From assembly GCF_965641715.1 (NCBI RefSeq), contig NZ_OZ282453.1: a stretch of DNA of 64,000 bases. One strand, 5' to 3'. Under the pieces are notes generated by a model. That model saw only the letters and a list, made by a program, of their open reading frames with translations. It made no database searches and was not told the DNA's origin. A program made the position numbers and the translations under genes. How positions within the stretch are numbered: the first letter of the stretch is position 1; each line of letters begins with the position of its first letter. Below, one piece after another: positions 51,706 to 51,782 of this stretch. The stretch is from Escherichia coli. GTDB lineage: Bacteria > Pseudomonadota > Gammaproteobacteria > Enterobacterales > Enterobacteriaceae.

Positions 51706-51782
51706 TGGCGGAACGGACGGGACTCGAACCCGCGCCCCCCTGCGTGACAGGCAGGTATTCTAACCGACTGAACTACCGCTCC
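51706..51782 (-). tRNA. aspU: tRNA-Asp (GUC), rrn-distal copy; one base different from the aspV copy
   Basis: Same 77 nt as aspV except a single substitution (tRNA-sense GGGGGTCGCG becomes GGGGGGCGCG). Confidence 0.9.

What the first reader, a model, noticed from the sequence alone, without database searches (positions are those of the whole stretch)
51706..51782. Single-base difference between the two tRNA-Asp copies
The rrn-distal copy differs from the aspV copy at one position (tRNA-sense T to G, around the variable loop / T-stem junction). In K-12 the Asp tRNA genes are identical as far as I recall, so this is either a strain polymorphism or a sequencing error.
Basis: seen in the sequence. 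Interest (0 to 1): 0.2.

Follow-up and report, generated by a model that had tools for sequence, protein, structure and literature searches.

The report
Recurrent U47G variant of tRNA-Asp
One of the two tRNA-Asp genes in this E. coli window carries a real but ordinary single-base variant (U47G, in the variable loop) that has arisen repeatedly in E. coli next to a run of five G's and most likely has little or no effect on the tRNA.

Summary
The tRNA-Asp(GUC) gene after the 5S rRNA (51706-51782, minus strand) differs from the dnaQ-side copy (43483-43559) at one base: + strand 51735, tRNA-sense T to G. This is canonical position 47, in the variable loop. K-12's three tRNA-Asp genes are identical and carry T.

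The variant is not unique. 110 of 5,426 complete E. coli genomes carry exactly this allele, at aspU, aspV or aspT, and no genome appears in more than one of the three flank-exact locus lists. U47C and U47A occur in none. At aspU the G sits on at least 7 flank haplotypes. It also occurs in Proteus penneri and Trabulsiella.

The same T-to-G change in the same GGGGG-T-CG context occurs in tRNA-Val(UAC) (207 genomes; U47C in 1). It is rarer after a G4 run in tRNA-Gly(GCC) (12 genomes).

A draft assembly identical to the window over 8.4 kb has the same G. Near-identical relatives have T. Sanger-sequenced S88 carries the allele at aspV.

Verdict: a genuine, recently derived strain polymorphism at a run-extending mutational hotspot, probably near-neutral. 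Low interest.

The parts
51706..51782 (-). tRNA-Asp(GUC) gene, aspU-type (last gene of the rrnH-type operon), G47 allele
   Evidence: ARAGORN; Rfam RF00005 67.7 bits; position after 5S and before dkgB as in K-12 aspU
51735..51735 (-). The variant base: C on + strand, G in tRNA sense; canonical tRNA position 47 (variable loop); T in the other copy and in K-12
51735..51740 (-). Run of six G in tRNA sense (G5 plus the new G). In the T allele the run is G5 followed by T
   Evidence: read from the sequence
43483..43559 (-). tRNA-Asp(GUC) gene, aspV-type (downstream of dnaQ), standard T47 allele (T47 = + strand 43512)
51666..51693 (-). Terminator-like hairpin (CCTCGAG-TTATCG-CTCGAGG) followed by T8 when read on the minus strand, just downstream of the tRNA
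   Evidence: hairpin found by the scan; T8 tail read from the sequence on the minus strand; inferred operon terminator
51837..51952 (-). 5S rRNA gene immediately upstream of the variant tRNA
   Evidence: Rfam RF00001 92.8 bits
52047..56937 (-). Rest of the rrn operon: 23S (52047-54949), tRNA-Ala (55133-55208), tRNA-Ile (55251-55327), 16S (55396-56937)
50740..51543 (-). dkgB, the unique-sequence neighbour that anchors this tRNA copy to the aspU locus
   Evidence: ORF; annotation of the matching region in H10407 and K-12

Best explanation
The G is a genuine, recently derived single-nucleotide polymorphism (U47G) in the aspU-type copy of tRNA-Asp. It lies at the one variable-loop nucleotide that has no tertiary partner in the tRNA core and carries no known modification in tRNA-Asp. 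The product should therefore still fold, be charged by AspRS and decode Asp codons, and the other tRNA-Asp copies act as a buffer. The change recurs across E. coli because the T sits immediately 3' of a G5 run. The most likely mechanism is polymerase slippage in the run followed by realignment (dislocation-type mutagenesis), which turns the neighbouring T into one more G. What is shown: the difference exists, it is recurrent, it is specific for G, it shows context parallels, and it is present in a second assembly. What is inferred: the slippage-realignment mechanism and near-neutrality.
For: Allele frequency: the exact allele is in 110 of 5,426 complete genomes, against 0 for U47C and 0 for U47A. 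Loci: it is found at aspU (31 flank-exact), aspV (18 flank-exact plus others) and aspT (6), and no genome appears in two lists. Backgrounds: 12 aspU carriers fall on 7 flank haplotypes, and the window's 301-bp context differs from T-carrying H10407 only at 51735. Other genera: independent occurrences in Proteus penneri (with its own D-loop base) and Trabulsiella. Same context elsewhere: tRNA-Val(UAC) U47G in 207 genomes including O157:H7 Sakai and EDL933, against U47C in 1; tRNA-Gly(GCC), with a G4 run, in 12. Per copy this is about 0.68%, 0.76% and 0.055%. Window lineage: L029 is 100% identical over 8,423 bp and has G; L026, L027 and L028 have T and only 1-3 other SNPs. Technology: S88 is Sanger-finished. 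Function: Rfam scores are equal for both alleles. acp3U47 is not reported for tRNA-Asp (PMC6895100). A damaging t8c change in one Asp copy has little growth effect (PMC5389703). Mechanism precedent: slippage then realignment gives substitutions at runs (PMC3643592).
Against: No reads were available for the window's genome. L029 could derive from the same isolate or the same reads, so it may not be independent. The counts are of genomes, not of mutation events. The Val count is dominated by the O157:H7 clade, so the run-length comparison is only indicative. No experiment links any polymerase to this site. Nearest-neighbour folding predicts that G47 stabilises a shifted anticodon-arm register by 2.6 kcal/mol, so a mild folding cost is possible, although the model also misfolds the wild type. 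The variant is seen mostly in small tip clusters, which fits a slightly deleterious or conversion-erased allele as well as a neutral one.
Confidence: 0.78

Rival explanations
1. Sequencing or polishing artefact. The T after GGGGG is a known Illumina context-specific miscall site (T read as G), and short-read polishing of a three-copy gene could fix the wrong base in this assembly.
For: GGGT and GGCGGGGT contexts give strand-specific miscall rates of up to 12-25% of forward reads (PMC3622629). The variant appears sporadically among otherwise near-identical genomes. That is what a stochastic site-specific error would look like.
Against: Sanger-finished S88 has the allele, and three other ST95-type genomes from other countries share it at the same locus. 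The Val equivalent is present throughout O157:H7, including Sakai and EDL933. In the window and in every sampled genome only one of the identical-context copies is changed. A draft contig links G to the unique dkgB flank. Strand-specific minority errors do not normally win a consensus.
Confidence: 0.1
2. A single old G allele spread by gene conversion among the three tRNA-Asp copies and by homologous recombination between strains, rather than by recurrent mutation.
For: Identical multi-copy tRNA genes are classic substrates for conversion, and the allele is seen at all three loci.
Against: No genome in the three flank-exact lists carries G at two loci. There are seven flank haplotypes at aspU. 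Proteus penneri has G47 on its own genus-specific tRNA sequence. Parallel T-to-G changes occur in tRNA-Val and tRNA-Gly, which cannot be templated by tRNA-Asp. There is no donor-like fragment in the window and none in viral contigs.
Confidence: 0.07
3. G47 is positively selected, as an adaptive isodecoder. For example it might alter stability, processing or sensitivity to a tRNA-targeting toxin, which would explain why only G is seen.
For: Strict G specificity (110 vs 0 vs 0). Fixation of the analogous Val allele in O157:H7.
Against: The allele never reaches more than small clusters for Asp. It hits any of the three loci. The frequency tracks G-run length across three unrelated tRNAs. Position 47 is not an AspRS identity element (own knowledge of the literature on tRNA-Asp identity: G73, G10, G34, U35, C36, C38) and not a known modification site in tRNA-Asp.
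Confidence: 0.05

Closest known systems
E. coli K-12 aspU (tRNA-Asp(GUC), distal gene of rrnH)
   Same: Same operon position (16S, Ile, Ala, 23S, 5S, Asp, then dkgB) and same 77-nt sequence apart from one base. Anticodon GUC, G73 and the encoded CCA are all present.
   Different: G instead of U at position 47. K-12 has U in all three copies.
G47 tRNA-Asp allele already present in public genomes (e.g. S88 aspV, 95NR1 aspU, CRE1540 aspT)
   Same: Identical 77-nt gene sequence.
   Different: The window's allele sits on its own flank haplotype, which otherwise carries T in other genomes.
tRNA-Val(UAC) U47G allele of O157:H7 (valT in Sakai)
   Same: Same variable loop GGGUC changed to GGGGC, with the same AGGGGG-T-CGG DNA context and the same direction of change.
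   Different: A different tRNA. That allele is listed in the O157:H7 reference genomes and most other O157:H7 genomes shown, whereas the Asp allele is scattered in small clusters.
Dislocation / slippage-realignment mutagenesis at homopolymer runs (Kunkel-type; DinB-class polymerases)
   Same: The substituted base becomes identical to the adjacent run, and the frequency rises with run length. Realignment after slippage converts an incipient frameshift into a substitution (PMC3643592).
   Different: Nothing here identifies a polymerase or shows the intermediate. The published example shortens the run, whereas here the run is extended.

Membership tests
tRNA-Asp(GUC) of Enterobacteriaceae | Cloverleaf tRNA detected by covariance model and tRNA finder | tested here: met
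   ARAGORN tRNA-Asp; Rfam RF00005 67.7 bits, equal to the T allele
tRNA-Asp(GUC) of Enterobacteriaceae | Anticodon GUC and the AspRS identity set (G73, G10, G34, U35, C36, C38; the set is taken from own knowledge of the literature) | tested here: met
   All these bases are unchanged in the 77-nt sequence. The variant is at position 47, outside the set.
tRNA-Asp(GUC) of Enterobacteriaceae | Aminoacylation with Asp and use in translation | not testable with these tools
   Would need charging assays or tRNA-seq of the G47 species
aspU locus (rrnH-distal tRNA-Asp) | Lies after the 5S of an Ile/Ala-spacer rrn operon and before dkgB | tested here: met
Run-extending slippage-realignment (dislocation) hotspot | The new base equals the base of the adjacent homopolymer | tested here: met
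   GGGGG-T to GGGGG-G
Run-extending slippage-realignment (dislocation) hotspot | Specific for that base over the other two substitutions | tested here: met
   Asp: G 110, C 0, A 0. Val: G 207, C 1
Run-extending slippage-realignment (dislocation) hotspot | Recurs independently on different backgrounds and at different copies | tested here: met
   Three loci, 7 flank haplotypes, two other genera
Run-extending slippage-realignment (dislocation) hotspot | Frequency increases with run length | tested here: inconclusive
   G5 Asp 0.68% and G5 Val 0.76% per copy against G4 Gly 0.055%. These are genome counts, not event counts, and Val is dominated by one clade.
Run-extending slippage-realignment (dislocation) hotspot | Dependence on a polymerase or on a slipped intermediate | not testable with these tools
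   Needs reporter or mutation-accumulation experiments
Illumina context-specific error (GGGT motif) | T preceded by a G run | tested here: met
   Context CAGGGGGT; motif list in PMC3622629
Illumina context-specific error (GGGT motif) | Absent from assemblies made without Illumina reads | tested here: not met
   Sanger/ABI3730-finished S88 carries the allele
Illumina context-specific error (GGGT motif) | Strand-biased minority read support | not testable with these tools
   No reads available

The most novel reading that the evidence does not exclude
Position 47 of variable loops that read GGGUC is a species-wide, run-extending mutational hotspot. It continually generates G47 isodecoder genes for tRNA-Asp, tRNA-Val(UAC) and, more rarely, tRNA-Gly(GCC). 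These alleles usually stay rare (lost through mild cost or erased by conversion from sister copies) but occasionally fix, as with valT in O157:H7. Such sites would be natural, nearly neutral reporters of slippage-realignment mutagenesis in wild populations.
Probability: 0.5. Interest if true: 0.3.

Novelty: already known. Interest (0 to 1): 0.14.

Why it matters
For this genome it matters little. One of several redundant tRNA-Asp genes carries a change at the least constrained nucleotide of the tRNA. The practical value is for curation: this difference should not be corrected as an error by default, since the same allele recurs in high-quality genomes. The broader pattern is T-to-G only, at G5-T, in three tRNA families, on many backgrounds. 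It is a tidy natural example of context-driven homoplasy. It could mislead SNP-based phylogenies, and it could serve as a field marker of run-associated substitution.

Tried and rejected
(1) Island or phage attP as the source of the G-bearing 3' half. No viral contig holds the G47 3' half. The window has no partial tRNA-Asp copy. The aspU flank is the ordinary dkgB flank, one mismatch from H10407.

(2) Quasi-palindrome templating. By inspection, the T-to-G change does not perfect any local inverted repeat. The wild-type T already pairs with A27 in the alternative hairpin.

(3) Loss of a modification. acp3U47 is not reported for tRNA-Asp.

(4) Finding the window's own genome among complete E. 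coli genomes. The best matches are only 99.1-99.4% identical over 9-23 kb, so it is not in that collection. Exact-protein look-ups found a 100% identical draft contig instead.

(5) MFE folding as a test of function. The nearest-neighbour model does not recover the anticodon stem for either allele, so it is uninformative beyond a 2.6 kcal/mol shift.

(6) The literature search for aspT/aspU/aspV variation found only the laboratory t8c suppressor, and nothing on position 47.

(7) The metagenome scan was not run. It would only have repeated the allele counts on Illumina assemblies and could not separate real variants from artefacts.

Full report
**Observation.** ARAGORN finds two tRNA-Asp(gtc) genes on the minus strand, at 43483-43559 and 51706-51782. 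The two 77-nt genes differ at one base, linear position 48: T in the 43483 copy and G in the 51706 copy. On the + strand these are 43512 (A) and 51735 (C). The Rfam tRNA model aligns the base as an insertion within the variable region. That makes it canonical position 47, the fourth nucleotide of the five-base variable loop GGG[U/G]C, two bases before the T stem. Both copies score 67.7 bits.

**Context.** The 51706 copy is the last gene of an rrn operon: 16S 55396-56937, tRNA-Ile, tRNA-Ala, 23S 52047-54949, 5S 51837-51952. It is followed on the minus strand by a hairpin plus T8 and then by dkgB. This is the K-12 rrnH/aspU arrangement, and the other copy follows dnaQ as aspV does. K-12 aspT, aspU and aspV are identical to one another and to the window's T copy. 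PMC5389703 also calls them "three identical tRNA-Asp genes".

**How common is the G allele?** I searched 5,426 complete RefSeq E. coli genomes.
- The exact 77-nt G allele is present in 110 records.
- Control queries with C or A at the same position match none exactly.
- With flanks included, the G allele is at the aspU locus in 31 genomes, at aspV in 18 with one flank type plus others such as 2013C-4187 and CFSAN064036, and at aspT in 6.
- No genome appears in two of these lists, so carriers have one changed copy.
- Twelve aspU carriers, including the window, fall on seven different 416-nt flank haplotypes.
- Over 301 bp the window differs from T-carrying H10407 only at 51735.
- Among 100,044 species-representative genomes, the G47 3' half occurs in only two: Proteus penneri, where the tRNA has its own D-loop base and so arose independently, and Trabulsiella odontotermitis. 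In both it is at the dnaQ-adjacent locus.
- It is absent from viral contigs.

**Context control.** tRNA-Val(UAC) has the same DNA context, AGGGGG-T-CGG, at the same tRNA position. Its T-to-G allele is in 207 genomes. These include O157:H7 Sakai, EDL933, Xuzhou21 and most other listed O157:H7 genomes, plus scattered non-O157 strains. The T-to-C allele is in one genome. tRNA-Gly(GCC) has a run of only four G's before the T, and its T-to-G allele is in 12 genomes. Per gene copy this is about 0.68% (Asp), 0.76% (Val) and 0.055% (Gly). These are genome counts, not event counts, and Val is dominated by one clade. The pattern is still consistent: the change is only toward the base of the adjacent run, and it is more frequent with the longer run.

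**Is it real in this genome?** The window's genome is not among the complete genomes. The best matches are 99.1-99.4% identical over 9-23 kb. Exact-protein look-ups gave closer relatives.
- Ten contigs encoding the same DkgB all have T at aspU. The closest, L026, differs from the window at two positions in 4,167 bp, one of which is 51735.
- Contigs encoding the same neighbouring methyltransferase include L029 (GCA_965259455.1). This is a 31-kb contig that begins inside the 5S gene, so it comes from a fragmented draft assembly and not from the contiguous source of the window. It is 100% identical to the window over 8,423 bp, with G at aspU and T at aspV.
- L027 and L028 have T, plus three and one other SNPs respectively.

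The G is therefore a very recent derived state within a tight lineage, and it is seen in a second assembly. I cannot exclude that the second assembly comes from the same isolate or the same reads.

**The artefact rival.** T after a G run is a documented Illumina context-specific miscall site. The error is strand-specific and reaches up to 12-25% of forward reads at GGCGGGGT (PMC3622629). Four points argue against this as a general explanation.
- S88, which carries the allele at aspV, was sequenced with dye-terminator chemistry on ABI3730 instruments to 12x coverage and finished (PMC2617782).
- Three further ST95-type genomes from Slovakia, China and the USA share the allele at the same locus.
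- The Val equivalent is shared by the O157:H7 reference genomes and most other O157:H7 genomes listed.
- In each genome only one of the three copies with identical local context is changed.

I put about 10% on an error in this particular assembly.

**Mechanism (inferred).** The specificity for G, the recurrence on unrelated backgrounds and at all three loci, and the parallels in Val and Gly point to a mutational cause tied to the run. The best candidate is slippage of the nascent G run by one base, addition of an extra G, and realignment that leaves G opposite the template A. Equivalently, on the other strand, the template T is skipped and the next G is copied, followed by realignment. Conversion of slipped intermediates into substitutions is documented for DinB-class polymerases (PMC3643592). 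No step of this was tested here.

The other rivals are less likely. Spread of a single allele by gene conversion and recombination fits poorly with the seven flank haplotypes, the Proteus case, the absence of two-copy genomes and the Val and Gly parallels. Positive selection for G47 is not excluded but has no direct support.

**Consequence for the tRNA (inferred).**
- In the canonical L-shape, variable-loop nucleotides 44, 45, 46 and 48 make tertiary contacts, while 47 points outward (established tRNA structural knowledge).
- Rfam's consensus treats position 47 as an optional insertion.
- acp3U47 occurs in E. coli Arg2, Ile1/2/2v, Lys, Met, Phe and Val2A/2B, but is not reported for Asp (PMC6895100).
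- The AspRS identity bases are untouched (the identity set is from my own knowledge).
- Even a core-disrupting t8c change in one Asp gene has no major growth effect, because two other copies remain (PMC5389703).
- Nearest-neighbour folding gives the same cloverleaf energy for both alleles. It predicts that G47 stabilises a shifted anticodon-arm pairing by 2.6 kcal/mol. The model also fails on the wild type, so this is weak evidence for a small cost.

**Verdict.** It is an ordinary allelic variant that already exists in public genomes. The only mildly interesting aspect is that it marks a recurrent run-extending T-to-G hotspot shared by several tRNA genes. Interest is low.

Noticed in passing
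window 20000-43400: A type VI secretion gene cluster (tssM, tssH, tssF, tssC, tssA, Vgr and others) lies directly downstream of the aspV-type tRNA-Asp. Only 571 of 5,426 complete E. coli genomes cover at least 80% of it, and the best identity is 99.1%.
   Followed up: no
window 51783-51836; L011, L030, L032, L034-L037: Length polymorphism in the spacer between 5S and tRNA-Asp. The spacer is 54 nt in the window, H10407, RM11911 and O157, but 193 nt in 95NR1, 504211, A41, PI6, GPEC349-628, TK3896 and JCKP02. The extra 139 nt begins with a copy of the 3' end of 5S.
   Followed up: partly
outside the window: valT-type tRNA-Val(UAC) genes, e.g. NC_002695.2 865091-865166: The same GGGGG-T to GGGGG-G change at position 47 of tRNA-Val(UAC) is present in O157:H7 Sakai, EDL933, Xuzhou21 and most listed O157:H7 genomes, 207 genomes in all. 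The T-to-C allele is in a single genome.
   Followed up: partly
L008 4121-4197 (Proteus penneri ATCC 33519); L009 1355-1431 (Trabulsiella odontotermitis): These are the only two of 100,044 species-representative genomes with the G47 tRNA-Asp 3' half. Both are at the dnaQ-adjacent locus, and Proteus also has its own D-loop base.
   Followed up: partly
window 54957-55065 (-): Rfam StyR-44 match (123 bits) in the spacer immediately upstream of the 23S gene.
   Followed up: no
window 48091 and 44995: Apart from the tRNA base, these are the only differences between the window and its near-identical T-carrying relatives L026 and L028. Position 48091 lies in the methyltransferase ORF 47940-48710 (-), and 44995 lies in the yafS-like ORF.
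   Followed up: no
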